Below are positions 2,101-26,950 of a stretch of DNA of 37,665 nucleotides, piece by piece. This DNA is from Parcubacteria group bacterium. GTDB lineage: Bacteria > Patescibacteriota > Minisyncoccia > Phycocordibacterales > UBA2135. The notes under the pieces were generated by a model. That model was not told where the DNA came from. It did not search any database and saw only the letters and a program-made list of their open reading frames with translations. Every line of letters starts with the position of its first letter. Within the stretch, counting starts at the first letter, position 1. Location: the NCBI GenBank assembly GCA_016204045.1, contig JACQLQ010000004.1:230927-268591 (forward strand), in the 5' to 3' direction. Both the position numbers and the translations under genes were made by a program.

Positions 2101-3061
2101 GATTTCTTTTCTTTTTTAGTATTTTTTTTAATTTTTCTACCACAAATTCGTCTGTCCTCTCTCTCGACTCGCGAGTGACCCCGCCAATATGCGGGACGAT
2201 AATGACATTCGAATGTTTCTTGGCGTATTCAAGAAGTGGGTATCCTCGCAGACGTACACCAACCTCGAATTCATCAGCGAGCACATCGGTGGCATATCCA
2301 GCCACACGTTTCCCCTTCAGGGCATGGAGGAGAGCTTTTTCATCGACAATCCGCCCACGAGCAGTATTTACAATATATACTCCCTTCTTCATCTTTTTAA
2401 AAGCATCTGCGTTCAACATATTCTCTGTCTCTTTATTCAGGTGTGCATGCAGAGAGATAACATCGCTTGCTTTAAGCAATTCGCTCAAAGAAACCTTCTT
2501 AGAGCCTGGAACGATACTTTTCTTGGTATGCGGGTCGTAAAAGATAACATCCATTCCAAGCGATCTTCCGTACTTCGCCATCCATGTCCCCAAGCGCCCC
2601 ATCCCAATAATGCCGATAGTCTTCCCATAAAGATTGGTTCCTCGGAAAAGCTCTCGTTTCCATTTGTACTCCTTAACCGAGCCAAAAGCCCAAGGCAAAA
2701 AGCGCACAATCGAAATCATAAGGCCTAGCGCAAGTTCCGCCGTGCCTGTAATCGTATTCAAAAACTTCGTTTCCCCCCAGAGACTCACGACTGCGATTCC
2801 TTGTGACTCGGCGTATTCAACATCGATGTTCTCGAGCGTATTTGCCGGAACTACAATTATCTTGAGTCTGGAAGCTTTGTCTATCGCTTCTTTGTTCACG
2901 ATTGGTTGTATGCCGACGACGATGATGTCATATCGAGGAACAATTCTAAGGAACTCATCTTGTGTGACGTGTTTGTAGTCGACATTGCCAAGCGTGTCCA
3001 ATACTTCTTTCGCCTTTGGGGCAAACGTAGACCCCAATGTGTTGAGAATTTTATATGTCAT
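2093..3061 (-). CDS. D-isomer-specific 2-hydroxyacid dehydrogenase (glycerate/phosphoglycerate dehydrogenase-like)
   Basis: 322 aa. Has the NAD fold GKTIGIIGMGRLGTWMAKYG, NTARGRIVDEKAL, and a catalytic-His segment VPHIGGVTRES. Its stop overlaps the neuB start by 8 nt. Confidence 0.85.
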   Translation of the reverse strand: MTYKILNTLGSTFAPKAKEVLDTLGNVDYKHVTQDEFLRIVPRYDIIVVGIQPIVNKEAIDKASRLKIIVVPANTLENIDVEYAESQGIAVVSLWGETKFLNTITGTAELALGLMISIVRFLPWAFGSVKEYKWKRELFRGTNLYGKTIGIIGMGRLGTWMAKYGRSLGMDVIFYDPHTKKSIVPGSKKVSLSELLKASDVISLHAHLNKETENMLNADAFKKMKKGVYIVNTARGRIVDEKALLHALKGKRVAGYATDVLADEFEVGVRLRGYPLLEYAKKHSNVIIVPHIGGVTRESRERTDEFVVEKLKKILKKKRNHA

Positions 3062-4512: not shown

Positions 4513-4541
4513 TAGACAACCCGCTAAAGAAGTTGTATAAG
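4513..4541 (+). promoter_or_regulatory. Sigma70-like promoter for the IlvD/Edd-family gene
   Basis: TAGACA(4513-4518), a 17-nt spacer, then TATAAG(4536-4541). A ~36-nt leader containing AAGAGG precedes ATG 4578. Confidence 0.4.
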
Positions 4542-4577
4542 TAGACCAGTCTGTACGTGGTTAGAAAGAGGTGTGAT

Positions 4578-14027: not shown

Positions 14028-15413
14028 TTATGCGCGGGCGTCACCTACTATTTTTCGTATAACATCAATGATTCTGTCTGAGGATTTGCCATCAACCTTA
14101 AAACAGAGCTGTTCGAGCAGCCTCTTTCTTTCCTCTCTTTTTCGCGCAGGGTCAAGGAGGTAGAGGTTCAGACTTTCCTTAAGAGCCTCTTCTGATTTCA
14201 CTACGTCAACACCCCCGGCGGCCATGACCCATCGGTAATGATCTGAATCGTACCAAATGCTTGAGATATCTTCCCCTGTTTTCGGATGAAGGAGGATCTT
14301 GAACGCCACATTAATCAGGGGTTTATCAAAACAAACCCCGTCTAACGTAAGTGTTGAAGCAACCGCGACCAGCGCATCACAGTGGTGAAGCAAATTGGTG
14401 AATTTCTTCGTTTCAGAAACATTAGGATCCCATGGCTTCAGAAAATCCGACGTTGTAAAATTGTCGTCTACTATCACGTTCGAACCCTTGAACTCATCGA
14501 ACCTACCACGATCTTTCTCTGAAAAGTGGGGTCGGATTATTAATGCACATTTTTCCCCAAGCATGTCGTTCTTTACCCAGTGAGAAAGCAAGGAGACGAT
14601 ATGCTGATCGTCGCCTGACCACGCCCCTTCTGAACCATAAAAGATAATCTTCCTCTCTGGATCGACGCCATAGGAATGGCAGAACTCATCACGACTCACT
14701 AGTATCTCTGGCCTTCGATACCAATCAAACTGCGGGAAACCGGAAACGGAGATTTGAGCAGGATCAATTCTCTGGACACGAGCAACCTCTCTCTTCATGA
14801 TCTCGTTTTGCACGACCAGATGGTCGGGGACGAACCGATACAGTTGCATGGTCACATTGTCCCAGCTTTTAGGCATAGACACTGTCGGGACTCCTCGCCG
14901 CTCCGCTTCCTTCATCATACTTATATCGAGTTTCCCCATTACCGATGTGGAAAAAACTAAATCCGGTTTGTGGGTATCAAAATACTTACCGTACGCAGAA
15001 GCTGGAAATACTTTTTTTTCCAAAAAACGGGTGACTGTTTTCAGAAAATGGAACTTACTCAATGTCCCGTAGAAGAAAAGGTCAAAATACTTCCAGTACT
15101 GAGCCTTTTGCAGCCGCTTAAGATTAATTTGGCTATACACCCACGATGACCCACTGTAGACCAAAAAACTTGTCTGCCACGAGAAAAAGGAATACCCCCG
15201 AATGTGGATATCTGGAGCCCCCTCAAGAATGACGTGTTCATCTTCAAATTCTTTACGAAGATAATCGGCGACTTCTCCGTTCTGGGACGGAAAGAAAATA
15301 ACAATCTTGTATCCCGCCTTCTTAAGGCCGTCGAGGACGCCACTGCGCAAAATACCGCGGGCAAGAAACCCACGTGTAATAACAATGAAAATGGTTTTGA
15401 GCTTCTTTGCCAT
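14028..15413 (-). CDS. Uncharacterised GT-B-like protein, paralogue A (partner at 26954..28312)
   Basis: 461 aa. Shares with the 452-aa partner the blocks KTIFI, KPDLVF, MPKSWDNV, G-x-PQFD-x-Y, SR-x-EFC, KII-x-YGS, RPH, ASTL-x-LD and DGKS. I recognise no Pfam-level family with confidence. Confidence 0.35.
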   Translation of the reverse strand: MAKKLKTIFIVITRGFLARGILRSGVLDGLKKAGYKIVIFFPSQNGEVADYLRKEFEDEHVILEGAPDIHIRGYSFFSWQTSFLVYSGSSWVYSQINLKRLQKAQYWKYFDLFFYGTLSKFHFLKTVTRFLEKKVFPASAYGKYFDTHKPDLVFSTSVMGKLDISMMKEAERRGVPTVSMPKSWDNVTMQLYRFVPDHLVVQNEIMKREVARVQRIDPAQISVSGFPQFDWYRRPEILVSRDEFCHSYGVDPERKIIFYGSEGAWSGDDQHIVSLLSHWVKNDMLGEKCALIIRPHFSEKDRGRFDEFKGSNVIVDDNFTTSDFLKPWDPNVSETKKFTNLLHHCDALVAVASTLTLDGVCFDKPLINVAFKILLHPKTGEDISSIWYDSDHYRWVMAAGGVDVVKSEEALKESLNLYLLDPARKREERKRLLEQLCFKVDGKSSDRIIDVIRKIVGDARA

Positions 15414-17203: not shown

Positions 17204-18136
17204 CAGGAAATCTCTTATATTATTCGTATCATAACGAGGAATACGAAACTGACTGTCCGTCTCCGAAACCCCTCGCTTTTCGGTTGTAAGCGCGTGCGTG
17301 AACCCTTCTTCCTTAAGAACCACGGACGCATATTCTGGAGCGCCCCCCTGGGGATAGGAAAGCAACGTAACCTCTCTCCCCAGTATACGACCCAATCCCT
17401 CTTTTGACTTAATGACTTCGTGCCTCACCTCTTTTTCACCCAAACGATCGAAGGGGGTATGTGTGTGACCGTGGCTTCCGATGGCAAACCCTTTTCTACC
17501 CAGTTCCTCAATTTCTACTGTCGACATGAAGAGGTCGCGCGCGAACTCCTTCTCGTCGAGGCCCAAAGTAAGAAAAACTCTTTGCAAAAAGGCATCTCTC
17601 ATCTCAAGCGGGATGATGTTCATGGTCTCCTTAAAGTTTGCTGTAAATACATCGTCCCACACCTTTCTTGCTTCCGTAATTCGCCTATCTTTAGGAATAG
17701 TATACGTAGCGACCTTGTCCGGATTAGTTTCCCTTAAAAAAACATTGAACTCCTCGACGAGTTTTTCTGTCGGGACATAAGAAAGGATGATATGTATCTT
17801 GTGCGTTGCTGGAAGTACATTTTCGAATGTTTCGGTAATGGGGAAAAAGGTCGCATGTTTTACAGCGTGTTTCTCTAATATAGGGACGGCGTTCTCAAAG
17901 TTGTCCTTGAGTCCGTCATCAAAAGTTACGGCGCACACCCTCTTGTCAGACTTCTCGCGGGCCGCCTCGAAAACTTCGGGGATTGAGACAACGGCGAATT
18001 GCTCTTTCAAAAAGGCAATCTGCCGATCAAATTCCGCTACCGGGCATGAATGAATTGCCGAGAACTTAGGATCAGGATCGCGTACATAATGATACGTGAC
18101 AAGTATTTGTTTGTCTTGGGGGTTAAATAATGTCAT
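17192..18136 (-). CDS. Polysaccharide deacetylase (CE4 / NodB homology domain)
   Basis: 314 aa. Contains VCAVTFDDGLKDNFENAVPILEKH (TFDDG motif 1), FFPITE, and IGSHGHTHTPF (His motif). TAATG 1-nt overlap with the upstream AsnB-like gene. Confidence 0.8.
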   Translation of the reverse strand: MTLFNPQDKQILVTYHYVRDPDPKFSAIHSCPVAEFDRQIAFLKEQFAVVSIPEVFEAAREKSDKRVCAVTFDDGLKDNFENAVPILEKHAVKHATFFPITETFENVLPATHKIHIILSYVPTEKLVEEFNVFLRETNPDKVATYTIPKDRRITEARKVWDDVFTANFKETMNIIPLEMRDAFLQRVFLTLGLDEKEFARDLFMSTVEIEELGRKGFAIGSHGHTHTPFDRLGEKEVRHEVIKSKEGLGRILGREVTLLSYPQGGAPEYASVVLKEEGFTHALTTEKRGVSETDSQFRIPRYDTNNIRDFLEKV

Positions 18137-19902
18137 TAATCTATAAATGCTCTAAACCATAATTCGAGGTTTACGCATTGCCAGATAAAAAAGGAATTGT
18201 CCTGATTCCCCTTCCAAAAGTCCTCCACCTGCCTTCCGAGAACTTCGTGGTTCCAATAGGGTCTTCGTTTAAATGACGGCGAATTGAGTATCTCCAAAAT
18301 CATCTCCTTATGATACTTCCTAAACCAATCGCCCTGCACACTGCTGAATGTCTTCTTTTCGGTCGCGCCGACGATATCTGGCAAATATTCCCCCATCGCT
18401 TCACGAATGAGAACCTTTTGGGAAAGCTCATTAATTTTATATTGAATGGGGAGAGAGAAGCAAAACTCAACTAAACGATAGTCCAGAAGGGGTAGTCGTA
18501 GTTCAGTGCCATACGCCATGCTCATGTGATCGTGGAATCTAAGAACACGCGGCAATTTTGTATGAGCAATATCTCTATACTGCGCATTCTGCACATGTGA
18601 ATCAAGAGGAGCCTCAAAAAAGATCGCGTTCTTTTCATGCTTTTTTACAAAGTCATCGTTCAAAATGTTGGCTCGTCGCAATGAGGATGCGTCCTGTCCA
18701 TACAAGCTAGGGGCAACTCTTTTTTGCGTAGGTTCTCCCCCTCTGTCTTTTTCGTATTCGTGTCGATAGTACGAATACCCCCCAAGGATCTCATCACCTC
18801 CTTGCCCCTCCAAAAGTACGGTCACGCCCTTCTCCCGCGCCATTCGGAACAGATGGTCGTGGGCAAGTGTTGGAATGCCACCATAGGGCTCCCCTTGCAC
18901 AAGATTCATGCGAGCTGCTTCAGTAAGGATAGTTTCGGGAGATATGCTTGTCGTATGCCACCTTGCCCTTTGCGCTTGATTCAGATGTGCTTCAATAGAT
19001 CGGCATTCATTGTACCTTTCGTCTTCATAGCAAAACGAGAAAGACGGCAAATCCTGATTCAGGATTTTTTTTGAGAAATAAAGCAGCGTATTGGAATCAA
19101 GCCCACTCGAAAGATTGATACCTACGGGCACATCACTTCTGAAGCGAATCCTTATCGCATCGGCAAGAAGCTCTTTGAACCGCCCCTTCAAGGACTCGGC
19201 ATCCTGTGTGTCTCCCCCCTTTAAGCTTCCGTGGTTTTTAAGATCCCAATACGAGGAGATGGTAATAGCCCCGTTCTCCCACAGGAGGTAACTCCCCGCT
19301 GGCAATTTTTGTATGTCAGAAAAGAAGGTTTCGTTCGTATGGTCATAAAGCCCGTAATAGAGATAATCAAATATCATTCGTTCGTTGGGGGCTTTCCCAA
19401 AACCAAGGGCATGAAGTCCTTTTATTTCAGAAGAAAAATAAAATGCGTTCCTTTGCACTGTATAGAAAAACGGCTTCACTCCCATTCTGTCTCGCGCACA
19501 AAAAAGCTTTTTCTCCTTTTTATCCCATATGGCAAAAGCGAACATCCCGTTAAGTCGGTTGAGGCATTTTTCGCCCCATGCCATATACGCAGCAAGAAGG
19601 ACTTCGGTGTCAGTCTCTGTTTTGAACTCATACATACCCTTTAACTCCTCCTTGAGTTCTACGTAGTTATATACCTCGCCGTTGTAGACAATGATAAAAC
19701 GCCCGTCATTTGAGACAAAAGGTTGGTGCCCGGCCTGTGTAAGGTCGATGATTGAAAGCCGCCTATGCCCTAGTGCGACACCCTCTTTGGCATCATAATA
19801 AAGTCCCGCATCGTCAGGTCCACGATGCGTCATGCTATCTCGCGCATGTTCAACTTGTTCCCGAGGAAGAGTCACCCCAAGGGCTCCGATTATTGCACAC
19901 AT
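18136..19902 (-). CDS. Asparagine synthase (glutamine-hydrolysing)-like amidotransferase, copy 1
   Basis: 588 aa. MCAIIG provides the N-terminal Cys nucleophile. Also present are HRGPDD, HRRLSIIDL, and the PP-loop-like NLSSGLDS. Confidence 0.85.
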   Translation of the reverse strand: MCAIIGALGVTLPREQVEHARDSMTHRGPDDAGLYYDAKEGVALGHRRLSIIDLTQAGHQPFVSNDGRFIIVYNGEVYNYVELKEELKGMYEFKTETDTEVLLAAYMAWGEKCLNRLNGMFAFAIWDKKEKKLFCARDRMGVKPFFYTVQRNAFYFSSEIKGLHALGFGKAPNERMIFDYLYYGLYDHTNETFFSDIQKLPAGSYLLWENGAITISSYWDLKNHGSLKGGDTQDAESLKGRFKELLADAIRIRFRSDVPVGINLSSGLDSNTLLYFSKKILNQDLPSFSFCYEDERYNECRSIEAHLNQAQRARWHTTSISPETILTEAARMNLVQGEPYGGIPTLAHDHLFRMAREKGVTVLLEGQGGDEILGGYSYYRHEYEKDRGGEPTQKRVAPSLYGQDASSLRRANILNDDFVKKHEKNAIFFEAPLDSHVQNAQYRDIAHTKLPRVLRFHDHMSMAYGTELRLPLLDYRLVEFCFSLPIQYKINELSQKVLIREAMGEYLPDIVGATEKKTFSSVQGDWFRKYHKEMILEILNSPSFKRRPYWNHEVLGRQVEDFWKGNQDNSFFIWQCVNLELWFRAFID

Positions 19903-19908
19903 ATAATG

Positions 19909-20721
19909 TTACTTGCCCGCCTCGCGACTTACTCCTTTTTCATACGCAAGAAAAGAAAAATAAGTGCGTGCAAAGTTTGGCACAAGATAGCCAAGGTTGT
20001 AGAGCAATATAAGAATCATATAGCCCCCCAGAAACTCCCACTGCTTGAGAAGTGCGAGAATGGTAATCCAGGTTACAATACCGGGTTCGGCAAAGAAATT
20101 TCCTTTGATAAGCGTGTGGTGATATATCTTCGCGAGACGGACAAATAATCCTGGGGGAGACCCCGCTTCACTTACATCGTCAAAAACACTGGTCTTTTCT
20201 TTCCCGCCCTTGTCCCAAAAGAAAGTCAGTATCTTTGTGTTCGTGAGACGGTAGAAAAGAAAGGAGATCGAAGTAAGCGCAGATAGAAAAAGTATAGACG
20301 ACGGAGTGAGAGCGTACACGGAGACATTCAATGAAAAAAGATAGTACCCTACAGATACGGGGACAACGGAGTAAAAGATGTCAGCGCCAAAGGAATCCAT
20401 GATGGCTCCATATGAAGAAGCTCCGCGCACACGCGCCATGTCGCCGTCGACGGAATCATGAAGAATGAAGAGGAGGAGAGATATGACTGCCACGAGAGGA
20501 TTACCAATGACAAAAAAATATGCAGCCGCGCCAATAAAAAGAAAGCTAATAAAGGTTATATGGTCCGGCTTGAGACCAAGGTTGAGATACAGATATGCGG
20601 GGTATGGCGCCAACAACTTCCCAATAGCGTTAATGGGTATAAGACGTTCTTCGATCTTTCGAGATACGCTTCTCCCTGGGTCATAGCGTGTCGCAAGAAT
20701 TTGTTTCAGTGTGTACTTCAT
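19909..20721 (-). CDS. CDP-alcohol phosphatidyl/phosphotransferase family membrane protein
   Basis: 270 aa and multi-TM. HDSVDGDMARVRGASSYGAIMDSFGADIFY matches D-x2-DG-x2-AR-x8-G-x3-D-x3-D. Confidence 0.85.
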   Translation of the reverse strand: MKYTLKQILATRYDPGRSVSRKIEERLIPINAIGKLLAPYPAYLYLNLGLKPDHITFISFLFIGAAAYFFVIGNPLVAVISLLLFILHDSVDGDMARVRGASSYGAIMDSFGADIFYSVVPVSVGYYLFSLNVSVYALTPSSILFLSALTSISFLFYRLTNTKILTFFWDKGGKEKTSVFDDVSEAGSPPGLFVRLAKIYHHTLIKGNFFAEPGIVTWITILALLKQWEFLGGYMILILLYNLGYLVPNFARTYFSFLAYEKGVSREAGK

Positions 20722-20722
20722 T

Positions 20723-21607
20723 TTAATAATGTTTGAACCATACCTCCCAAAGCTTAGCTTCTTTGGGAAAAGGCCGCTTCAGTGCGCGAACCATCCAGTT
20801 CTCACCCAAGATCCCCTCGGCATTGAGCAAAAAAAGGATGTTTTTAACAAAGTCAGGAAGCTTCAGTGTGTTGTAGGGTTTATACTCAAAGAATTCTCCT
20901 AGTCGTTTTTTCTTAACCTCAACATCTCCGAACTTCCTAAAGAATTTTTTCACTTGCCCCCTGGTGTAAACGTCGGTTTTTGGTGCACTCCCATGGACTT
21001 CCGAGACCTCGCTATAGACCTTTTTCCAATCAAAACCATGCTTCCACCACTTACCAAGCAAAAGCCCATGAATGAGGCATCGTTTAATGTAGTGTTTCCA
21101 TCCGCGCGCATAGACCAAGATCATGGCTTGTCCATCTGGCTTTAACACACGATATATTTCATCAATGGCTTTTTGTGTATTAGGCGTGTGGTGGACGACA
21201 CCAATAGATAGCACTACGTCAAATGTATTGTCAGGGAACGGCAGCTGTTCTGCGTTCCCCTCTTTAATCTCTTTGTAGGGAAGTTTTCGCAAGTCGAGGT
21301 TGAGTTTCGTCAACATCACTTGGTCTTGACCCAAATCAACTCCGGAGACAATGGCCCCGCCCTTCGCATACTCGATGAGGTCCGTCCCGATGCCAATGCC
21401 GATCTCAAGCACTTGCTCGCCAGGATGATACTCAAACTCCGCCCATTTTTTAATGTGCGGATAGTAGCGGTCATACCGCTTGAAAGAGAGCTCGTTAAAC
21501 CACGCCAGTGTAAAGGGCTCTTTTCGGGAGTACCATTGCTGGGGGATGTTTTTCTTCCCCCAATAATTTCTCACCTCTTCAATAGTCAGTTTTTTATTCT
21601 CCTCCAT
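20723..21607 (-). CDS. Class I SAM-dependent methyltransferase (Methyltransf_11-like)
   Basis: 294 aa. Contains VLEIGIGIGTDLIEYAKGGAIVSGVDL ... FDVVLSIGVVHH ... LKPDGQAMI. Confidence 0.8.
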   Translation of the reverse strand: MEENKKLTIEEVRNYWGKKNIPQQWYSRKEPFTLAWFNELSFKRYDRYYPHIKKWAEFEYHPGEQVLEIGIGIGTDLIEYAKGGAIVSGVDLGQDQVMLTKLNLDLRKLPYKEIKEGNAEQLPFPDNTFDVVLSIGVVHHTPNTQKAIDEIYRVLKPDGQAMILVYARGWKHYIKRCLIHGLLLGKWWKHGFDWKKVYSEVSEVHGSAPKTDVYTRGQVKKFFRKFGDVEVKKKRLGEFFEYKPYNTLKLPDFVKNILFLLNAEGILGENWMVRALKRPFPKEAKLWEVWFKHY

Positions 21608-21609
21608 AG

Positions 21610-23727
21610 TTACTTACTTTCCGATAGCTCTCCACGAAGCTGCGGAAGCACTAAAAACATCATTATATCACAGACATTTGTCCCCGTAGGGTGGCCGACA
21701 TGGATATTCGAGTTGATCTGGGAAAGAAGACGATTTGCTTTGTGTGACTCCAAAAAAGAGGATATTGCCGGATCGAGTCCTTTTTCTTCTAGAAGACGCA
21801 GTGAATGCGCATCAATGATGCCGCCCGCGGATTCGGGAATAAAATCAATACCATCTGTACCGACAGAAGCAACGCACCACTCTCCTTCAAATGGCTGAGA
21901 CTGGAGATGCTGCAAACATGCAAGAACAAATTCCTGATTCCTTCCTCCCTTCTTGTGCGGATAATCAAGCGTTACGGTTGTCTCTCCACCAAAGAGAAAA
22001 AGGGTTGGACGCTTAATTTCGTGCTCATGGACAAGATTGCACAGCTCATAAGCAACTTCCCGCGCCTCCCCTTGCACGTGAGACCTCACAACTACGTCTA
22101 AACCTTCGCCTTGTGCGCGCTCTTTGATCTTCTGGAGTACTCGGTCGTTGTCTGCAAGAATGTGGTGGCGCACATGAGAAAACTCATCGTCCTTTGAATC
22201 GATGTCTTTGTTTCTCTCAAGATATGCGAGGACGGTTTCCGGAATTTTCTCCCTCATGTTGCGTTTGTCGATAATCCGCAACGCATCGGCATACGTGGAA
22301 GAATCTTCCGCGAGAGGGCCCGAGGCGATGACGTCGAGATTGTTACCAACGACATCAGAGAGAACGAGAGAAATTATCGGTGTTGGGTAAAAGTGTTGGG
22401 CAAGCTTCCCGCCTTTAATCCGTGAGATTTTCTTTTTTATAATCGTGATGCCATGGACGTTTTCCCCGCTTGTGATAAGTGCTTGTATCGTCTTCTGTTT
22501 ATCTTCAAGTGAAATGCCTTCCGCAGGATATGACATGAGCGATGAGCCGCCCCCTGAAACCAACGCTATGACAAGATCGTCTCCTTGTATGTTGAACCTC
22601 TGCTTGAGTGCGAGAACTTTTTCAGACCCGGCAACACTCCTCTCTGTTGGAAGAGGGTGATCCCCTTCGTGGATCTCGATCTTTTCTGGAATATGGATTG
22701 TGTCATTTGAGATGACGACGCCTGCTGTTATTCTTTCTTTACCGATAATCCGCTCAAGCTCTACTGCCATTGCGGCAGAAGCCTTGCCGGCACCGATAAC
22801 AAAAATACGTTTTCCCTTGATGGGAAATTCTTTCTCTTGCACAAAAAGACTCTCGGGCGTAACCCTTACCGCCTCACGCATGAAACTCTTCGGAAGCGCG
22901 GACTGAATCCCCTCATGCGCTAACGAAAGCAACTTCTTTCGAAGCGGCGAAGTGGCAAGCTCCTCGTAATTTTTAAAAATGATGTTTTTTGCTTCGCTTT
23001 CCGCGCCAGAAAGAATGGTGCCAATGCACGCCTTCGCCTTCTCGTAATCATCCGGGGTATCAACTTCTGCCCATGCATAGTGGGGCAAGACCTTGTGCTT
23101 TCGAAGTGCAAATCTGCCGACCATCGCTTGAAGCGGAACAACAAAGGATATGTTTCTGTTGCCTGCTTCAAAAAGTTTTTCCGCCTCTTTGAAGTACACC
23201 CCACTCGCTTCCTGTGAAAGTTTGTATATGCCGATCGCCCACGCGCTCGCATCGGACTTCAAGTGTTTGCCGATCTTCCGCATGCTCCCATTTTCCAAGA
23301 CAACCTTCATGGCGTCATCTTCCAATTTTGGAGACGGATCAGCGACAAAGCTGTTCTCAAAATCATTCGAAAGAATGCCCTCCAAAATTCCTGGATGAAA
23401 GATGATGTCCCCGTTAAAAAAAATCATTCCGTCCGTAATGTGATCTCGAGCAAGCCATAAGGAATAGATATTGTTTGTTGATTCGTACTCCGAGTTCAAA
23501 ACATATGTTATAGAACAGTTTTTGTATCGGACACCGACTTTTTCCTGGACCGCTTCTCTACAATGACCAACTACGATAACGACCTCTGTTATGCCGCACG
23601 CAGAAAGATTGTCGAGCATATACTCGATTATTGTCTTTTCCCCAACTGGTAGGAGTGCCTTGGGATATTTTAGGGTCAAGGGGCGCATTCGCTTCCCCTC
23701 TCCGGCGGCACAAATGACGGCTTTCAT
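21610..23727 (-). CDS. Fusion protein: N-terminal LicC-like CTP:phospho-alcohol cytidylyltransferase + C-terminal MOFRL-family glycerate 2-kinase
   Basis: 705 aa. Residues ~1-240 (23727..23008) read MKAVICAAGEGKRMRPLTLKYPKALLPV...NSEYESTNNIYSLWLA...WAEVDTPDDYEKA. Compare LicC MKAIILAAGLGTRLRPLT...NDKYADYNNFYSLYL...IYEIDSVQDYRKL, recalled from memory. Residues ~255-705 (22965..21613) contain FVIGAGKASAAMA, HPLPTE, LVSGGGSSL, GISLEDKQKT, IKGGKLA, VLSDVVGNNLDVIASGP, GGETTV and VGTDGIDF, the hallmarks of DUF4147+MOFRL glycerate kinases. Confidence 0.8.
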   Translation of the reverse strand: MKAVICAAGEGKRMRPLTLKYPKALLPVGEKTIIEYMLDNLSACGITEVVIVVGHCREAVQEKVGVRYKNCSITYVLNSEYESTNNIYSLWLARDHITDGMIFFNGDIIFHPGILEGILSNDFENSFVADPSPKLEDDAMKVVLENGSMRKIGKHLKSDASAWAIGIYKLSQEASGVYFKEAEKLFEAGNRNISFVVPLQAMVGRFALRKHKVLPHYAWAEVDTPDDYEKAKACIGTILSGAESEAKNIIFKNYEELATSPLRKKLLSLAHEGIQSALPKSFMREAVRVTPESLFVQEKEFPIKGKRIFVIGAGKASAAMAVELERIIGKERITAGVVISNDTIHIPEKIEIHEGDHPLPTERSVAGSEKVLALKQRFNIQGDDLVIALVSGGGSSLMSYPAEGISLEDKQKTIQALITSGENVHGITIIKKKISRIKGGKLAQHFYPTPIISLVLSDVVGNNLDVIASGPLAEDSSTYADALRIIDKRNMREKIPETVLAYLERNKDIDSKDDEFSHVRHHILADNDRVLQKIKERAQGEGLDVVVRSHVQGEAREVAYELCNLVHEHEIKRPTLFLFGGETTVTLDYPHKKGGRNQEFVLACLQHLQSQPFEGEWCVASVGTDGIDFIPESAGGIIDAHSLRLLEEKGLDPAISSFLESHKANRLLSQINSNIHVGHPTGTNVCDIMMFLVLPQLRGELSESK

Positions 23728-23771: not shown

Positions 23772-23801
23772 ATAGAAAAAACCCCTTGAAAATGGGGTTT
23801 T
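23772..23801 (-). terminator. Rho-independent terminator ending the hddC...aminotransferase operon
   Basis: The minus strand reads AAAACCCC-ATTTTCAA-GGGGTTTTTTCTATA, an 8-bp stem plus T-run. The stem includes the TAA stop of the aminotransferase gene. Confidence 0.75.
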
Positions 23802-25008
23802 ATGAACATTCCTTTTTCGCAAAATCGCGCATTCGCTCTATCCCTTCTATAGTGCGCTCATTTGTAAGGCCAACCCGGAAAAGGTCATTTCGTCCGAAAT
23901 CCTCACCAGGGGTCACCGCGACAAGCGACTCGCTGAGCAACGCTTCAGCAAGCGTGAGAGAGTCTTTAAATCTCCCCCCGAGACACGCGGACACATCAAT
24001 GGGCATGTAAAAGCTTCCCGAAGGATCCAGAACCTTGAGCGGTGTACCTTCTAGTATTGTCTTCGCGAGGGCCAATCGCTCTCTGTAGGAAGCAATCTCT
24101 TTGCGTATCTCTTTCTCAAGAAGCTGCTTCCTGTTTTGGAGAGAAACAAGACCCGCAAACTGTGTCACTGGGTCGACACAGACGATATTGTGCCGCTGAA
24201 ACCGAAGCATCGGTTCGACAAGCTCCTGGGGCACAATGGCATAGCCTAGACGCCGGGTGTACATGTGGTGGATCTTTGAAAAGCCGTTCAACACCACGAC
24301 ACAATCTTTATTTCCCCGAGCCACGCGAAGTATGGGACAAAAATCATCGCCATATACAAACCCGTCGTATATTTCGTCGGAAACGACTACTGCTTGCCCG
24401 TCCACAATCTCGAGTATGCGCTCCATTTCCTCGCGGCGGACAACATTGCCGAGAGGATTCCCCGGCGAGTTGAGAACGACGAGTCTTGTTTTCCCTGGGG
24501 TAAAGCGCCTTTCGAATTCTTCGAGGTCAACTCTTCCGTCGCTTGTAACGGAATAGAAAACGGGGGTCACTCGAGCAATAACAGTGTTCGCAAAGTATGG
24601 TGGATAATACGGGAGAGGTAGAAGCACTTCGTCACCTGGATCAAGCAGCAGCTGATAGAGCATCAGGAAGAAGGGACTTGTTCCGTTGTTGATAAAGACT
24701 TGGTCTGGACGTATTGAGACGGCATGCGTTCTCTCATACTCCTCGACGATTGCCTGGCGAAGCGATAGGAGTCCTTGCGCGTCAACGATCTCGCGCTTTT
24801 CCTTGTCATAGATACTCTTGGCCACTTCATCAGCAACAACTTCCTGCATGGGTACTTCGGACTTGCCCAAGTTGAGTTTGATGACGTCTTTACCTTTGAG
24901 GACGAGGTCGTTTGCCAATCGGTCAATGCGCAGTACGTGGAAATCGGGAATGCGTGACGCTATGCGAGAAAGGTGCATAGGGGGCTGTTTCTTTTCAAAA
25001 TTTCTCAT
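23800..25008 (-). CDS. PLP-dependent aminotransferase, class I/II (aspartate aminotransferase fold)
   Basis: 402 aa. Contains LNSPGNPLG, VSDEIY and NGFSKIHHMYTRRLGY (S-K PLP lysine context). It is the last gene of its operon; its stop codon sits inside a terminator stem. Confidence 0.8.
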   Translation of the reverse strand: MRNFEKKQPPMHLSRIASRIPDFHVLRIDRLANDLVLKGKDVIKLNLGKSEVPMQEVVADEVAKSIYDKEKREIVDAQGLLSLRQAIVEEYERTHAVSIRPDQVFINNGTSPFFLMLYQLLLDPGDEVLLPLPYYPPYFANTVIARVTPVFYSVTSDGRVDLEEFERRFTPGKTRLVVLNSPGNPLGNVVRREEMERILEIVDGQAVVVSDEIYDGFVYGDDFCPILRVARGNKDCVVVLNGFSKIHHMYTRRLGYAIVPQELVEPMLRFQRHNIVCVDPVTQFAGLVSLQNRKQLLEKEIRKEIASYRERLALAKTILEGTPLKVLDPSGSFYMPIDVSACLGGRFKDSLTLAEALLSESLVAVTPGEDFGRNDLFRVGLTNERTIEGIERMRDFAKKECS

Positions 25009-25024: not shown

Positions 25025-26950
25025 TTATAGGCGAACACCATATTCCCGCATCCACACTTCCAGGTTGATAAGCGCCCAGACATCCCGACCCGTAAGAGCA
25101 TTTCGCCCTGGAGAAAGTCTCTGAGAAAGCATCTCTTTGTCGTAAAGGGAAGCAGAATGGGAGTCAGAAGCAAGCAACAGTTCCCTGCCGGTCTTTATCA
25201 GTGAGCCCGACAACCATTCATTAAGGGGGACAGGAAACCCAAGCTTTTTTCGCTCTGCGATCTCCTTGGGGAGGAATCTGCTCCCGATTTTACGCAACAG
25301 ATATTTTGTCACGTCGTGGACATCACTAATCTGGTCACTATTTAATACCCTTGCGTTCTCTCTGTCCCTCTCCGACTTCCACGCCATTTTGTATTTCATT
25401 GGTAAGGACGAAACATATTCTACGACCTTGTGGTCAATGAACGGGACCCGCCCTTCAACAGATGCTCCCATGGCGGCGTTATCCAGTCGTCCCAATATAC
25501 CCAAGAGGTGAATTCTTTGGAAAAAATGTACGTACTGCTCTGAGGAAGACAGTCCTTCGGCTTTTTTCAACTCACTCTTTATGTATTCTCTGTTTAAGAT
25601 CTGATCCTTAGCTTCGGGAAAAACTTCCCCACTAAGGAGCGAGCGTGTGGTCTCGTAGGCCGTATATGGATACTGAAACAAAAGGTGGTCAACAAGTTCC
25701 TCAAAAATAGCATCTCCGTATTTTTGTTTTAAATTGGAGAATAACGTCTTCTGCTCTTCGGGGGATAGTGCCTCCAGTTTGCGTCGTCCTGCCATCAGGT
25801 CAAAATCATCGCCGCTCCGAAATATTCTCCCATAGCCGCCAAAAAGTTCATCAGCCCCCTCACCAGAAAGTACCACAGTAATATGCTTTTTGAGTTCCTT
25901 GGAGAGGGCGAGGAGCGGAATTTCATTGGGCACATGAAGTGGGGCATCCTTATACCTAATCGCTTCCGGCAACATATCAAAATATTCATTCTCCCCCATG
26001 ACTATCTCGTGGTGATCAGTCTTGAGTTTCTTTGCAACCATGCGTGCGTGCCCCAATTCATTGAATCCCTCTTCCGAAAAACCTACGGAAAATGTTTTGA
26101 CCGGCTTATCCGATATCTCCGACATGAACCCCACGAGCGCGCTTGAATCAAGTCCTCCAGAAAGATACGCCCCGAGCGGCACGTCACTTATCATGTGGGA
26201 CTTGACTGCTTTTTTCAGGATTTCTTCTGTGTGTTTCAAAATTTCCTCTTCTCCGGCATCGCTTTTATCCTTAACGACAGGTAATTCCCAGTATTTTTGC
26301 GGCTTCGGAGCTTTGCCTTCAGTCACAAACGCGTAGTGACCCGGCAAAAATGAATAGACCCCTTCAAAAAAAGTACTCTCCCCGAGAGGGTATCTATAGC
26401 TCAAATAGTCTAAGAATGCTCTTTTGTTGAGAACCTTTGACATCCGCGCTGACTCAAGAATCCCCTTCATTTCTGAAGAAAAGTAGAAAACATCATTATA
26501 AAAGCTCCAAAATAATGGCTTTATGCCCAACCGGTCGCGTGCGACAAAAAGCACTCTCTCTTTTCTGTCCCAGATGGCGAACGCAAACATGCCGTCAAGT
26601 TTCTGAAGACACTTCTCCCCCCAGACTACATACGCCGCAAGCAAGACCTCGGTATCCGTTTGTGTCTTAAACTTGTACTTACTTCCAATCTCATTCTTTA
26701 ATTCTCGGTAATTGTAAATCTCACCATTGAAAACAATCGCGTATCTATCATCAAATGAAAAGAGCGGTTGACGCCCTTCGGGAGAAAGGTCAATGATGGA
26801 AAGCCGTCGATGCCCCAAGGCAACGCCCTCTTTGGGCTCATAGTAAAGCCCTGCGGCGTCGGGTCCACGATGCACCATGAGGTCGCGGGCCCTTTCAAAC
26901 ATTTCCCGTGAAGGCAATACGTCTCCAACGACACCAATGATTGCGCACAT
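25025..26950 (-). CDS. Asparagine synthase (glutamine-hydrolysing)-like amidotransferase, copy 2
   Basis: 641 aa. Contains MCAIIG, HRGPDA, HRRLSIIDL and the PP-loop YLSGGLDSS. The glutaminase domain looks roughly 65% identical by eye to copy 1. Confidence 0.85.
   Translation of the reverse strand: MCAIIGVVGDVLPSREMFERARDLMVHRGPDAAGLYYEPKEGVALGHRRLSIIDLSPEGRQPLFSFDDRYAIVFNGEIYNYRELKNEIGSKYKFKTQTDTEVLLAAYVVWGEKCLQKLDGMFAFAIWDRKERVLFVARDRLGIKPLFWSFYNDVFYFSSEMKGILESARMSKVLNKRAFLDYLSYRYPLGESTFFEGVYSFLPGHYAFVTEGKAPKPQKYWELPVVKDKSDAGEEEILKHTEEILKKAVKSHMISDVPLGAYLSGGLDSSALVGFMSEISDKPVKTFSVGFSEEGFNELGHARMVAKKLKTDHHEIVMGENEYFDMLPEAIRYKDAPLHVPNEIPLLALSKELKKHITVVLSGEGADELFGGYGRIFRSGDDFDLMAGRRKLEALSPEEQKTLFSNLKQKYGDAIFEELVDHLLFQYPYTAYETTRSLLSGEVFPEAKDQILNREYIKSELKKAEGLSSSEQYVHFFQRIHLLGILGRLDNAAMGASVEGRVPFIDHKVVEYVSSLPMKYKMAWKSERDRENARVLNSDQISDVHDVTKYLLRKIGSRFLPKEIAERKKLGFPVPLNEWLSGSLIKTGRELLLASDSHSASLYDKEMLSQRLSPGRNALTGRDVWALINLEVWMREYGVRL

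What the first reader, a model, noticed from the sequence alone, without database searches (positions are those of the whole stretch)
18136..23727. LicC-type cytidylyltransferase fused to a glycerate-2-kinase, operonic with a methyltransferase, CDP-alcohol phosphotransferase and AsnB-type amidotransferase: candidate CDP-glycerate / phospho-glycer(amide) transfer pathway
Seen in sequence. One 705-aa ORF (21610..23727) joins a LicC-like nucleotidyltransferase domain to a complete DUF4147+MOFRL glycerate-kinase domain. The first domain shows G-x-G-x-R-x-x-PLT...PK and the NNIYSLWL block. The second shows GAGKASAAMA, SGGGSSL, GISLEDKQKT, IKGGKLA, LSDVVGNNLDVIASGP, GGETTV and GTDGID. This is the first gene after a strong terminator. 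Three genes follow with 0-6 nt spacing: a SAM methyltransferase, a CDP-alcohol phosphotransferase with an intact D-x2-DG-x2-AR-x8-G-x3-D-x3-D motif, and a Cys-nucleophile AsnB-like amidotransferase.

Established knowledge. LicC-family enzymes activate phospho-alcohols with CTP. MOFRL kinases make 2-phosphoglycerate. CDP-alcohol phosphotransferases move the phospho-alcohol from a CDP donor onto a hydroxyl acceptor; the IPCT/DIPPS pair for di-myo-inositol phosphate is an example. CofC/CofD use an NDP-activated 2-phospho-hydroxyacid in F420 synthesis. AsnB-like enzymes turn carboxylates into amides.

Inference. Kinase, then cytidylyltransferase, then phosphotransferase would install a phosphodiester-linked glyceric acid residue on a glycan or lipid. 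That residue might then be amidated and/or methylated. From memory, phosphoglyceramide substituents exist in some enterobacterial O-antigens; this needs a literature check. I do not recognise this kinase::cytidylyltransferase architecture or this gene set as a characterised system.
Basis: partly seen in the sequence, partly recalled or inferred. Interest (0 to 1): 0.8.

Follow-up and report, generated by a model that had tools for sequence, protein, structure and literature searches.

The report
Fused glycerate kinase–cytidylyltransferase making CDP-glycerate
An uncultivated groundwater bacterium, probably a Parcubacterium, fuses a glycerate kinase to a CpgD-like cytidylyltransferase inside a surface-sugar gene cluster, which most likely makes CDP-glycerate to attach phosphoglycerate or its amide to a glycan or lipid; this is a new variant of chemistry first shown in Caulobacter in 2025.

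Summary
ORF 21610-23727(-) is one 705-aa protein with an NTP_transferase domain followed by DUF4147+MOFRL. A methyltransferase, a CDP-alcohol phosphotransferase (PT) and an AsnB follow at 2, 1 and 6 nt.

The fusion is not an artefact. The exact protein occurs on three independent contigs. Fused homologues exist at 34-68% identity, and split CT+GK gene pairs occur in the same order elsewhere.

Caulobacter CpgD is a proven CTP:2-phosphoglycerate cytidylyltransferase, and CpgA is a CDP-alcohol phosphotransferase proposed to use its product. The window's N-domain is closer to CpgD than to LicC. It keeps CpgD's glycerate-contacting residues.

Corrections:
- The conserved module extends upstream. 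It is AsnB(25025-26950) – aminotransferase – CT::GK – MTase – PT.
- The terminator is modest.
- The PT motif spacing is x7/x4, not x8/x3.
- The kinase keeps six active-site residues but swaps three otherwise invariant ones (N/R/H to T/K/K), so its substrate might be a glycerate analogue.

Verdict: a new variant of a known kind. Acceptor and final product are unknown.

The parts
23014..23727 (-). N-terminal cytidylyltransferase domain of the fusion (residues 1-~238), CpgD-like (COG1213/LicC-IPCT type)
   Evidence: Pfam NTP_transferase and NTP_transf_3. 28% identity over 239 aa to Caulobacter CpgD, pairwise E 3e-31. phmmer 96.3 bits to CpgD against 64.6 bits to LicC. CpgD residues G12, R16, K26, T88, N90, N110, D112, M147, K148 and K161 are conserved.
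22984..23013 (-). Short linker of ~10-15 residues (LSGAESEAKN) between the two domains
   Evidence: Split kinases start at the sequence that follows this linker in the fused proteins.
21610..22983 (-). C-terminal class II (DUF4147+MOFRL) glycerate-2-kinase-like domain (residues ~249-705, plus stop)
   Evidence: Pfam. Full-length matches to PH0495 (1x3l, 246.7 bits) and TM1585 (2b8n, 206.2 bits). K315, D458, E582, R596, D625 and N684 equal TM1585 K47, D189, E312, R325, D351 and N407. Clade-specific T428/K431/K433 stand where canonical enzymes have invariant N/R/H.
20723..21607 (-). SAM methyltransferase, the most conserved module protein
   Evidence: Methyltransf_11. 65-88% identity across 8 other loci. 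Best PDB match is phosphoethanolamine N-methyltransferase PMT-2, 58.6 bits.
19909..20721 (-). Divergent CDP-alcohol phosphotransferase, a membrane protein
   Evidence: PF01066, 34.2 bits. Invariant motif D-x2-DG-x2-AR-x7-G-x3-D-x4-D. AF2 model pLDDT 90.4. The top 16 Foldseek PDB hits are all CDP-alcohol phosphotransferases at probability 1.0, TMq 0.42-0.57. The family has only 57 hits in 5.8 billion proteins.
23800..25008 (-). Class I/II (aspartate-aminotransferase-like) aminotransferase, the most faithful neighbour of the CT/GK genes
   Evidence: Aminotran_1_2. Orthologues at 47-70% identity lie next to CT/GK in all 10 distinct loci examined. Best PDB hit is aspartate aminotransferase 1o4s, 186 bits.
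25025..26950 (-). AsnB-type glutamine amidotransferase, the conserved module copy
   Evidence: GATase_7 + Asn_synthase. 50-65% identity to the AsnB immediately upstream of the aminotransferase in 7 bacterial loci, and 31% in L018.
23778..23801 (-). Terminator-like hairpin plus U-run overlapping the aminotransferase stop codon
   Evidence: It is modest (8 bp, 4 G-C) and the region is not distinguishable from shuffles.
18136..19902 (-). It is not a conserved module member.
   Evidence: 35% identity to the upstream AsnB. The only orthologue (50%) is in L002, at a different position.
26954..28312 (-). TagF-like (Glyphos_transf / BFO_1060-like) transferase, 'upstream' type
   Evidence: PF04464, 37 bits. 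NCBIfam BFO_1060, 58 bits, below cut-off. Orthologues at 49-67% identity sit upstream of AsnB in L001, L004 and L014. L007 and L013 carry a Glyphos_transf gene in the same position, not checked by BLAST.
14028..15413 (-). TagF-like transferase, 'downstream' type, next to the ABC exporter
   Evidence: PF04464, 36 bits. 69% identity to the L001 gene that directly follows the phosphotransferase. No PDB sequence match.
12229..14016 (-). Fused TMD-NBD ABC exporter (MsbA/PglK type), conserved at the end of the module
   Evidence: ABC_membrane + ABC_tran. Present in L001, L002/3, L004, L014 and L017.
2093..3061 (-). D-2-hydroxyacid dehydrogenase. It could reduce hydroxypyruvate, but it is not the orthologue of the module's dehydrogenase.
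   Evidence: 2-Hacid_dh. 59% identity to the L004 copy beside the NeuB genes. Only 27-32% identity to the copies that sit between aminotransferase and CT in L002, L014, L017 and L018.

Best explanation
The 705-aa protein is a natural gene fusion of two consecutive enzymes.

1. Its C-terminal class II glycerate 2-kinase domain phosphorylates D-glycerate to 2-phospho-D-glycerate. This step is inferred from family membership.
2. Its N-terminal CpgD-like domain condenses that product with CTP to give CDP-2-glycerate. This is inferred from homology to a biochemically and structurally characterised enzyme.
3. The membrane CDP-alcohol phosphotransferase two genes downstream moves the phosphoglycerate from CDP onto a hydroxyl of a lipid or lipid-linked glycan, releasing CMP. 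One or both TagF-like transferases may also do this. The step is inferred from co-occurrence, and the acceptor is unknown.
4. The aminotransferase directly upstream, together with a D-2-hydroxyacid dehydrogenase in four related loci, probably supplies glycerate from serine via hydroxypyruvate.
5. The conserved upstream AsnB probably converts the carboxylate to an amide, giving glyceramide 2-phosphate.
6. The very conserved methyltransferase adds a methyl group at an unknown position.
7. The product is exported or flipped by the MsbA/PglK-type ABC exporter as part of a surface glycopolymer that also contains nonulosonic-acid and heptose-type sugars.

The host is most likely a Parcubacterium (Patescibacteria/CPR).
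For: Domains and active-site residues:
- Domain architecture.
- The CT domain aligns end to end with CpgD at 28% identity, E 3e-31. It scores 96.3 bits by phmmer, against 64.6 for LicC and 42-53 for IPCT and PntC structures.
- CpgD makes CDP-glycerate and prefers D-2-PG (PMC12275187).
- The CpgD residues that bind CTP (G12, R16, K26, T88, T93), those that H-bond glycerate (N90, N110) and those that pack against the 2D enantiomer (M147, K161) (PMC13228409) are conserved in the fused and split CTs. T93 appears as Ser. LicC has A-D-N at the N-G-D position.
- The kinase domain matches solved MOFRL kinases over its full length. It keeps all six presumed active-site residues listed for TM1585 in PMC1079889.
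- All characterised class II kinases make 2-PG (PMC2063504).

Fusion and synteny:
- The fusion and the split CT-GK gene pairs in the same order argue for consecutive steps.
- The gene set AsnB, aminotransferase, CT, GK, MTase and PT recurs in 9 of 10 distinct loci. This includes a shuffled arrangement in a contig whose kinase NCBI labels Nanoarchaeota.
- At least 10 hits of the small PT family share a longest-contig length with module kinases.

Precedent, chemistry and host:
- In Caulobacter the proposed user of CDP-glycerate, CpgA, also carries the CDP-alcohol phosphotransferase domain (PMC11324152).
- Glyceramide 2-phosphate exists as a glycan substituent.
- Host: the IlvD/Edd homologue is 80% identical to a Parcubacteria MAG protein. 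Named PT homologues come from Wolfebacteria, Parcubacteria and Patescibacteria.
Against: - No enzyme of this module has been assayed.
- The module's kinase clade replaces three residues that are 100% invariant in 81 ordinary glycerate 2-kinases. EINtvRKH becomes (E/G)(I/M)T..KKK. The MOFRL PRATT motif has F where G or P is expected. The phosphorylated substrate may therefore differ from glycerate.
- 2-PG is a glycolytic intermediate, so a dedicated kinase is not obviously needed.
- The module-type 2-hydroxyacid dehydrogenase is absent from the window and from several other loci.
- L015 has aminotransferase-CT-GK with a TagF-like gene but no phosphotransferase and no AsnB. The phosphotransferase is therefore not obligatory.
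- The phosphotransferase motif spacing is non-canonical, and TM-scores to solved family members are only about 0.5.
- CpgD residues S170 and W201 are not conserved.
- The methyltransferase's nearest solved relatives are phosphoethanolamine N-methyltransferases. That fit is odd for a substrate without an amine.
Confidence: 0.6

Rival explanations
1. The pathway logic is the same, but the small molecule is not glycerate. The kinase clade phosphorylates a glycerate analogue made by the neighbouring enzymes. Candidates are glyceramide, an amino-hydroxy acid such as isoserine or serine, or 2-hydroxysuccinamate made from Asp via AsnB, aminotransferase and dehydrogenase. The CT would then make a new CDP-activated head group, which is later N- or O-methylated.
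For: - Three residues invariant in canonical glycerate 2-kinases are changed to T/K/K throughout the module clade. The separately fused P0039 lineage, in a different gene context, keeps RKH.
- In L017 the gene order AsnB-aminotransferase-dehydrogenase-CT-GK reads like a linear pathway from an amino acid to a phospho-hydroxy-acid. L014 is the same, and so is L003 with CT and GK fused.
- The methyltransferase is 65-88% conserved, and its nearest solved relatives N-methylate phospho-amines.
Against: - The CT keeps the exact residues that contact the glycerate moiety in CpgD: N90, N110, M147 and K161.
- All six presumed catalytic or binding residues of TM1585 are kept.
- No MOFRL kinase with another substrate is known (PMC2063504).
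- R-to-K and H-to-K changes keep the positive charge.
Confidence: 0.2
2. CDP-glycerate is made as proposed, but the enzymes that transfer or polymerise phosphoglycerate are the TagF-like GT-B proteins, by analogy with CDP-glycerol and TagF. The CDP-alcohol phosphotransferase does something else, for example building the lipid primer from CDP-diacylglycerol.
For: - L015 has aminotransferase-CT-GK followed directly by a Glyphos_transf gene and has no phosphotransferase.
- TagF-like genes flank the module in nearly all loci.
- The phosphotransferase's weak NCBIfam and Foldseek neighbours are CDP-diacylglycerol-using PIP synthases.
- The CpgD authors themselves draw the TagD/TagF analogy.
Against: - The phosphotransferase family is tiny and almost confined to this module. 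Such a distribution is unexpected for a general lipid-synthesis enzyme.
- The TagF-like proteins match PF04464 only weakly (36-37 bits). They also resemble BFO_1060-type transferases and have no PDB sequence match.
- The L015 TagF-like protein is unrelated by BLAST to those of the other loci.
- Caulobacter's proposed CDP-glycerate user is a CDP-alcohol phosphotransferase.
Confidence: 0.25
3. This is a phosphocholine-type (LicC/Kennedy-like) pathway. The PMT-like methyltransferase makes phosphocholine, the LicC-like domain makes CDP-choline, and the phosphotransferase installs phosphocholine. The kinase fusion would be incidental.
For: LicC is the best match among solved structures. The methyltransferase's best PDB hit is a phosphoethanolamine N-methyltransferase.
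Against: - The LicC match covers only the N-terminal 110 residues at 64.6 bits, whereas CpgD aligns over the full length at 96.3 bits.
- Pocket residues follow CpgD, not LicC.
- A recurrent fusion or adjacency with a glycerate-kinase homologue has no role in a choline pathway.
- There is no choline or ethanolamine kinase and no decarboxylase in the module.
Confidence: 0.04
4. The fusion is an assembly chimera or a frameshift artefact that joins two separate genes.
For: Split versions of the two genes exist in related loci, only 1-20 nt apart or overlapping.
Against: - The identical 705-aa ORF occurs on three independent contigs.
- Fused homologues at 34-68% identity come from unrelated samples.
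- There is an in-frame linker with conserved flanks.
Confidence: 0.01

Closest known systems
Caulobacter crescentus ceramide diphosphoglycerate (CPG2) pathway: CpgD (CCNA_01210/CC_1152) and CpgA (CC_1159)
   Same: CpgD is a COG1213 cytidylyltransferase that makes CDP-glycerate from CTP and, preferentially, D-2-phosphoglycerate (PMC12275187). The window's CT domain is its full-length homologue and shares its substrate-contacting residues. The proposed downstream user, CpgA, carries a CDP-alcohol phosphotransferase domain, as the window's PT does (PMC11324152).
   Different: CpgD is a stand-alone protein, and its authors state that a dedicated phosphoglycerate-producing enzyme is unidentified. 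Here the kinase is fused to it. The window has no ceramide kinase (CpgB), CpgC or sphingolipid genes. The context is a glycan locus with an ABC exporter, AsnB, an aminotransferase and a methyltransferase, in Patescibacteria-like organisms. Identity is only 28%. The CpgA sequence could not be obtained, so it was not compared.
IPCT/DIPPS of Archaeoglobus fulgidus (di-myo-inositol phosphate synthesis; PDB 4mnd, 2xme)
   Same: A LicC/IPCT-type cytidylyltransferase feeds a CDP-alcohol to a CDP-alcohol phosphotransferase. Both domains are detectable homologues or fold neighbours of the window's proteins.
   Different: In IPCT/DIPPS the cytidylyltransferase is fused to the phosphotransferase, and the alcohol is inositol phosphate. 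Here the cytidylyltransferase is fused to the preceding kinase, and the phosphotransferase is a separate gene with altered motif spacing.
TagD/TagF CDP-glycerol teichoic-acid system, and TagF-like capsule polymerases of ABC-transporter-dependent capsules (established knowledge)
   Same: A CDP-activated C3 polyol phosphate is transferred to a lipid-linked glycopolymer and exported by an ABC transporter. TagF-like (PF04464) genes flank the module.
   Different: TagD belongs to a different cytidylyltransferase family (COG0615). The C3 unit here is predicted to be the acid or amide, not glycerol. The TagF-like matches are weak.
Class II (MOFRL) glycerate 2-kinases such as TM1585 and PH0495, and the serine to hydroxypyruvate to glycerate to 2-PG route
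   Same: Same two-domain fold family and the same six active-site residues. The neighbourhood of aminotransferase plus D-2-hydroxyacid dehydrogenase mirrors the serine-degradation route that I recall from Yang et al. 2008, J Bacteriol. That paper is recalled, not read here.
   Different: The kinase is fused to a cytidylyltransferase. N/R/H are replaced by T/K/K in the EINxxRKH motif. The context is biosynthetic rather than catabolic. The aminotransferase is class I/II (AspAT-like), not class V.
Campylobacter jejuni O-methyl phosphoramidate pathway (Cj1418 kinase, Cj1416 COG1213 cytidylyltransferase, Cj1419/1420 methyltransferases), from established knowledge
   Same: A dedicated kinase, then a COG1213 cytidylyltransferase, then transfer to a capsule with SAM-dependent methylation. 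Cj1416 can use phosphoglycerate in vitro.
   Different: The kinase family and the substrate (glutamine) differ. No CDP-alcohol phosphotransferase is involved.
D-glyceramide 2-phosphate substituent of the Providencia alcalifaciens O22 O-polysaccharide (Ovchinnikova et al. 2012, cited in PMC6222762)
   Same: This is exactly the residue expected if the AsnB amidates a phosphodiester-linked 2-phosphoglycerate.
   Different: Only the chemistry is known to me. I found no paper that links it to genes, and the Providencia locus could not be examined with these tools.

Membership tests
CpgD-type CTP:phosphoglycerate cytidylyltransferase (COG1213) | Nucleotidyltransferase fold with the G-x-G-x-R...K signature (CpgD G12, R16, K26) and the catalytic Asp (D112) | tested here: met
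   G9, R13, K23 and D107 are conserved in the window protein, in all fused and split homologues (12 sequences in all) and in CpgD.
CpgD-type CTP:phosphoglycerate cytidylyltransferase (COG1213) | Cytosine-specifying positions (T88 backbone, T93 hydroxyl) | tested here: met
   T84 is conserved. Position 93 is Ser (S89), which keeps the hydroxyl.
CpgD-type CTP:phosphoglycerate cytidylyltransferase (COG1213) | Residues contacting the glycerate moiety or selecting the 2D enantiomer (N90, N110, M147, K161; water-mediated S170) | tested here: met
   N86, N105, M140 and K154 are present. N90 and K161 equivalents are kept in all 12 module CTs, N110 in 11 of 12 and M147 in 10 of 12. S170 is Ala in most. 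LicC lacks N at the N110 position.
CpgD-type CTP:phosphoglycerate cytidylyltransferase (COG1213) | Catalytic formation of CDP-glycerate from CTP and 2-PG | not testable with these tools
   This needs an enzyme assay with LC-MS, as in PMC12275187.
Class II (MOFRL) glycerate 2-kinase | DUF4147 + MOFRL two-domain architecture | tested here: met
   Pfam E 3.6e-67 and 2.9e-22. Full-length alignment to 1x3l and 2b8n.
Class II (MOFRL) glycerate 2-kinase | Presumed active-site residues K47, D189, E312, R325, D351, N407 (TM1585 numbering, PMC1079889) | tested here: met
   They map to K315, D458, E582, R596, D625 and N684 through the alignment, after removing the 12-residue tag offset of 2b8n.
Class II (MOFRL) glycerate 2-kinase | Other family-invariant residues: N159, R162, H164 of the EINxxRKH motif (100% in 81 ordinary homologues), and the PRATT motif D-x(0,2)-G-x(0,1)-D-[GP] | tested here: not met
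   The window and 89-97% of the 37-member module clade have T428, K431 and K433. The motif reads D-G-I-D-F.
Class II (MOFRL) glycerate 2-kinase | [quoted passage not shown] | not testable with these tools
   Needs an enzyme assay.
CDP-alcohol phosphotransferase (PF01066) | Pfam model above its gathering score | tested here: met
   34.2 bits against a cut-off of 22.
CDP-alcohol phosphotransferase (PF01066) | Signature D-x2-D-G-x2-A-R-x8-G-x3-D-x3-D | tested here: inconclusive
   All four Asp, the DG and the AR are invariant, but the spacing is x7-G-x3-D-x4-D in all 39 family members.
CDP-alcohol phosphotransferase (PF01066) | Polytopic helical fold like AF2299, PIPS or DIPPS | tested here: met
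   AF2 pLDDT 90.4. The top 16 Foldseek hits are all family members at probability 1.0, though TMq is only 0.42-0.57.
Caulobacter CPG2 sphingolipid pathway (as a system) | Ceramide synthesis genes, ceramide kinase CpgB, and CpgC next to CpgD and CpgA | tested here: not met
   None of these families appears among the window's genes. The context is glycan biosynthesis.
AsnB-type glutamine-dependent amidotransferase | N-terminal Cys nucleophile with GATase_7 and Asn_synthase domains | tested here: met
   Both copies start MCAIIG and pass Pfam and TIGR01536. Their substrate is unknown.

The most novel reading that the evidence does not exclude
Patescibacteria, and a DPANN-labelled archaeon from the same kind of groundwater, use a dedicated serine-to-CDP-glycerate line to decorate or polymerise a surface glycopolymer. 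The units would be phosphodiester-linked, amidated and methylated C3 acids, giving a 'teichoic acid' built from glyceramide phosphate rather than glycerol phosphate. In the stronger version, the altered kinase (T/K/K) and the PMT-like methyltransferase mean the head group is a previously unknown CDP-activated amino- or amido-hydroxy acid.
Probability: 0.2. Interest if true: 0.75.

Novelty: new variant of a known kind. Interest (0 to 1): 0.58.

Why it matters
- CDP-glycerate was shown to be a real metabolite only in 2025, in one organism and for one lipid. This locus suggests that the same activated intermediate is used in a very different setting: surface glycan synthesis in ultra-small, uncultivated Patescibacteria, and apparently in a DPANN archaeon.
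- It supplies what the Caulobacter authors said was missing, a dedicated phosphoglycerate-producing enzyme. Here that enzyme is physically fused to the cytidylyltransferase.
- It offers a testable gene set for the unexplained glyceramide 2-phosphate substituents of bacterial polysaccharides.
- It gives a compact seven-gene marker for an envelope feature of organisms whose surfaces are almost unknown.
- The fused enzyme would be a convenient one-pot biocatalyst for CDP-glycerate.

Tried and rejected
1. Assembly or frameshift artefact: rejected.
2. LicC/phosphocholine reading: considered because LicC is the top PDB hit. I downgraded it after retrieving CpgD from a Caulobacter genome with the published cloning primer.
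3. The downstream AsnB is not the conserved copy.
4. The window's 2-hydroxyacid dehydrogenase (2093-3061) as the module's hydroxypyruvate reductase: not supported as an orthologue, at only 27-32% identity to the module-type copies.
5. CpgA could not be compared.
6. The TagF-like proteins had no usable PDB sequence matches. No homologue search remained to build an alignment for structure prediction.
7. Literature searches for the fusion, for gene clusters behind phosphoglycerate or glyceramide phosphate, and for Patescibacteria teichoic-like systems found nothing relevant.
8. The Yang et al. 2008 paper on TM1585 is not held. Its content is cited from memory only.
9. I did not predict the structure of the whole fusion to look for juxtaposed active sites, because the tool returns no coordinates or inter-domain error.

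Full report
**What is in the sequence**

Almost every gene in the window lies on the minus strand, in one long glycan-biosynthesis locus. The ORF at 21610-23727(-) encodes 705 aa. Pfam finds NTP_transferase/NTP_transf_3 at residues 2-119, DUF4147 at 267-504 and MOFRL at 576-687.

Three genes follow it:
- a Methyltransf_11 protein at 20723-21607, after a 2-nt gap;
- a CDP-OH_P_transf protein at 19909-20721, after a 1-nt gap;
- an AsnB at 18136-19902, after a 6-nt gap.

Upstream lie an aspartate-aminotransferase-like gene (23800-25008), a second AsnB (25025-26950) and a weak Glyphos_transf match (26954-28312).

Between the aminotransferase and the fusion is a 72-nt spacer. It holds an 8-bp hairpin plus a U-run that overlaps the aminotransferase stop codon. 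The hairpin is modest, and the region folds no better than shuffled sequence, z = -0.11.

**Is the fusion real?**

- The identical 705-aa protein is called on three contigs from different sequencing runs.
- The word-indexed search found fused homologues at 45-68% identity (P0002-P0010) and one at 34% (P0039).
- An exhaustive HMMER pass over 1.84 billion cluster representatives found the fused architecture in three 50%-identity clusters plus one fragment. The fusion is rare but recurrent.
- In the closest relatives where the two parts are separate genes, they lie in the same order: 1-20 nt apart in L004, L014 and L015, and overlapping in L017.
- The separate kinase begins MIFSNYKELATSPLR. This is the sequence that follows a ~10-15-residue linker in the fused proteins.

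This is a clean gene fusion of neighbouring genes.

**The cytidylyltransferase domain**

Among solved structures, the best sequence match is LicC (1jyk). It scores 64.6 bits and covers only the first 110 residues. PntC and IPCT entries follow at 42-53 bits.

A literature search for CDP-glycerate found that Caulobacter CpgD (CCNA_01210) is a COG1213 enzyme. It makes CDP-glycerate from CTP and phosphoglycerate and prefers D-2-phosphoglycerate (PMC12275187). Product-bound crystal structures are described in PMC13228409.

I recovered cpgD from a Caulobacter vibrioides contig by searching for the published cloning primer. Three results follow.
- The window's domain aligns with CpgD over 239 residues at 28% identity, pairwise E 3e-31.
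- With the database size set equal to that of the PDB search, it scores 96.3 bits. That is clearly above LicC.
- A MAFFT alignment compared 11 fused CT domains, one split CT and CpgD. CpgD's G12, R16, K26, T88, N90, N110, D112, M147, K148 and K161 are conserved. T93 appears as Ser. S170 and W201 are not conserved.

According to the structural paper, N90 and N110 hydrogen-bond the glycerate, and M147 and K161 make the van der Waals contacts that favour the 2D enantiomer. In the tool-printed LicC alignment, the N-G-D of the window (N105-G106-D107) faces A-D-N. CpgD is therefore the closest characterised relative, and the substrate pocket follows it.

**The kinase domain**

The domain aligns end to end with PH0495 (1x3l, 246.7 bits) and TM1585 (2b8n, 206.2 bits).

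Cheek et al. (PMC1079889) list six conserved residues that point into the presumed active site of TM1585: K47, D189, E312, R325, D351 and N407. I mapped them through the alignment, allowing for the 12-residue tag in 2b8n. They correspond to K315, D458, E582, R596, D625 and N684, and all are conserved. Every characterised class II kinase produces 2-phosphoglycerate (PMC2063504).

There is one real caveat. I aligned 37 members of the module clade against 81 ordinary homologues. Three positions that are 100% invariant in the ordinary enzymes (N, R and H of EINxxRKH) are T428, K431 and K433 in 89-97% of the module clade. The family's PRATT motif also reads D-G-I-D-F where G or P is expected. The distant fused lineage P0039 sits in a different gene context (two SDRs and a HAD hydrolase). 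It keeps RKH. The phosphorylated substrate is therefore probably glycerate, but an analogue cannot be excluded.

**The conserved neighbourhood**

I read ten distinct related loci.

- The recurrent order is TagF-like, then AsnB (~640 aa), then aminotransferase, then a D-2-hydroxyacid dehydrogenase in some loci, then CT(::)GK, methyltransferase, CDP-alcohol phosphotransferase, TagF-like and an ABC exporter.
- The aminotransferase is orthologous in all ten loci (47-70% identity) and is always beside the CT/GK genes.
- The AsnB directly upstream of it is the orthologue of the window's upstream copy, 25025-26950 (50-65% identity).
- The methyltransferase is the most conserved protein of all, at 65-88% identity.
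- The phosphotransferase is present in nine of ten loci. That count includes the truncated end of L013.
- A module-type 2-hydroxyacid dehydrogenase lies between the aminotransferase and the CT in L002/3, L014 and L017, and nearby in L018.
- The window's own dehydrogenase (2093-3061) belongs to a different group. That group sits beside the NeuB/CMP-sugar genes, as in L004.

Two loci are informative exceptions.
- L018 is a contig whose kinase NCBI labels as from a Nanoarchaeota MAG. It carries the same gene set in a shuffled arrangement.
- L015 has aminotransferase-CT-GK next to a Wzt-type ABC ATPase and an unrelated Glyphos_transf gene. It has no phosphotransferase or AsnB.

**The phosphotransferase**

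A profile search of 5.8 billion proteins returned only 57 hits. The named ones come from Wolfebacteria, Parcubacteria and Patescibacteria MAGs, plus one Chloroflexi MAG. At least ten hits share a longest-contig length with module kinases, which implies they lie on the same contigs.

In all 39 aligned members the motif is D-x2-D-G-x2-A-R-x7-G-x3-D-x4-D. The four Asp are present, but the Gly and the third Asp sit one residue earlier than in the canonical pattern.

An AlphaFold2 model built on that alignment is confident, with mean pLDDT 90.4. Its top 16 Foldseek matches in the PDB are all CDP-alcohol phosphotransferases (PIP synthases, AF2299, IPCT-DIPPS). Probability is 1.0, and TM-scores are 0.42-0.57. 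It is a genuine but divergent family member with a very narrow distribution tied to this module.

In Caulobacter, the protein proposed to use CDP-glycerate, CpgA/CC_1159, also carries this Pfam domain (PMC11324152). I could not obtain its sequence for a direct comparison.

**Host and locus**

- The IlvD/Edd-family dehydratase on the plus strand (4557-6290) is 80% identical to a protein from a 'Parcubacteria group bacterium' MAG. Its longest contig (344,533 bp) matches that of a phosphotransferase homologue from the same kind of MAG.
- By their record names, some related contigs come from groundwater metagenomes (Hainich and the ANAN16 records). The host is therefore probably a Parcubacterium. 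This is an inference.
- The rest of the locus encodes glycosyltransferases, a GmhA/HddA/HddC-like heptose trio, NeuB, three CMP-sugar synthetase paralogues, a KpsC/S-like protein and an MsbA/PglK-type ABC exporter. This indicates a lipid-linked surface glycopolymer.

**Most likely mechanism**

Shown by homology to characterised enzymes:
- a kinase of the glycerate-2-kinase family;
- a cytidylyltransferase of the CpgD type with the CpgD pocket.

Inferred from fusion and synteny:
- the two domains act consecutively, taking glycerate to 2-PG and then to CDP-2-glycerate;
- the phosphotransferase, the TagF-like proteins, or both, move phosphoglycerate to a lipid or glycan hydroxyl;
- the aminotransferase, with a 2-hydroxyacid dehydrogenase where present, supplies glycerate from serine via hydroxypyruvate, as in the known serine-to-2-PG route;
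- the conserved AsnB amidates the carboxylate, and the methyltransferase methylates an unknown position.

A glyceramide 2-phosphate substituent is chemically documented in the Providencia alcalifaciens O22 O-polysaccharide. I found no paper that links that residue, or this fusion, to genes.

**Rivals**

1. The small molecule is a glycerate analogue (confidence 0.2). This is suggested by the T/K/K substitutions, by the pathway-like gene order, and by the methyltransferase's nearest solved relatives being phosphoethanolamine N-methyltransferases.
2. The TagF-like proteins are the true phosphoglycerate transferases, and the phosphotransferase makes a lipid primer (confidence 0.25). L015 suggests this reading. 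It is compatible with the first half of the main model.
3. A phosphocholine pathway (confidence 0.04).
4. An artefact (confidence 0.01).

**Novelty and verdict**

CDP-glycerate synthesis by a homologous enzyme, and its proposed use by a CDP-alcohol phosphotransferase, were described in Caulobacter in 2024-2026.

What is new:
- the fusion with the kinase, which is the 'dedicated phosphoglycerate-producing enzyme' that the CpgD authors said was unidentified;
- the tightly conserved seven-gene module with AsnB, aminotransferase and methyltransferase;
- the distinct phosphotransferase subfamily;
- the glycan rather than sphingolipid context;
- the Patescibacteria/DPANN distribution.

I rate it a new variant of a known kind, with interest 0.58.

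Noticed in passing
window 22429-22446 (-), residues 428-433 of the fusion: The module's kinase clade carries T/K/K where 81 ordinary MOFRL glycerate kinases have invariant N/R/H (EINxxRKH becomes GITiiKKK). This may signal a changed substrate.
   Followed up: partly
window 20723-21607 (-): The methyltransferase is the most conserved protein of the module, at 65-88% identity across loci, more than the fusion itself. Its best solved relatives are phosphoethanolamine N-methyltransferases. Its substrate is unknown.
   Followed up: partly
L018:4615-13014: A contig whose kinase NCBI labels 'Nanoarchaeota archaeon' (Hainich groundwater, 0.1 um filter) carries the same gene set (PT, GK, AsnB, aminotransferase, 2-hydroxyacid dehydrogenase, CT, MTase) in a shuffled order, plus a HIT-family gene. 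This could reflect sharing between CPR bacteria and DPANN archaea, or a mis-binned contig.
   Followed up: no
L015:5801-12778: In an NCBI assembly (GCA_964459145.1), aminotransferase-CT-GK sits beside a Wzt-type ABC ATPase with a Wzt_C glycan-cap-binding domain and an unrelated Glyphos_transf gene. There is no PT or AsnB. This hints that the phosphoglycerate unit could be a chain-terminating cap there.
   Followed up: no
window 4557-6290 (+): An IlvD/Edd-family (arabinonate-dehydratase-like) gene lies on the opposite strand in the middle of the minus-strand glycan locus. It is 80% identical to a Parcubacteria MAG protein and 73-75% to many unrelated bacteria. The overlapping minus-strand ORF 4442-5230 has no Pfam match and, like ORF 5691-6224 (not scanned), is probably spurious.
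   Followed up: partly
L001:10213-11899 and L014:11460-13018: In two loci a ~257-aa protein with no Pfam match in L001 (none on record for L014) plus a NUDIX hydrolase are inserted between the kinase and the methyltransferase. The NUDIX enzyme might act on the CDP-linked intermediate.
   Followed up: no
P0423, P0433 (representative library hits): Other fusions of MOFRL kinases exist: HAD Hydrolase_3::kinase (690 aa) and DUF952::kinase (550 aa).
   Followed up: no
L016:206-4767: A distant fused CT::GK (P0039, 34% identity) that keeps the canonical RKH motif sits next to two short-chain dehydrogenases and a HAD hydrolase instead of the module. It may be an independent use of the same fusion.
   Followed up: no
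window 1060-4475 (-), 7608-8264 (-) and L004:15712-19649: Three CTP_transf_3 (CMP-sugar synthetase) paralogues, NeuB and a second type of D-2-hydroxyacid dehydrogenase form a nonulosonic-acid sub-cluster. L004 has a similar NeuB/CTP_transf_3/dehydrogenase sub-cluster. The role of that dehydrogenase is unexplained.
   Followed up: no
L003:553-804, L007:5304-5492, L017:4985-5233: Small HTH_17 (excisionase-like) genes lie within two genes upstream of the module's AsnB in several loci, and directly before it in L003 and L017. They may be regulators or a mobility remnant.
   Followed up: no
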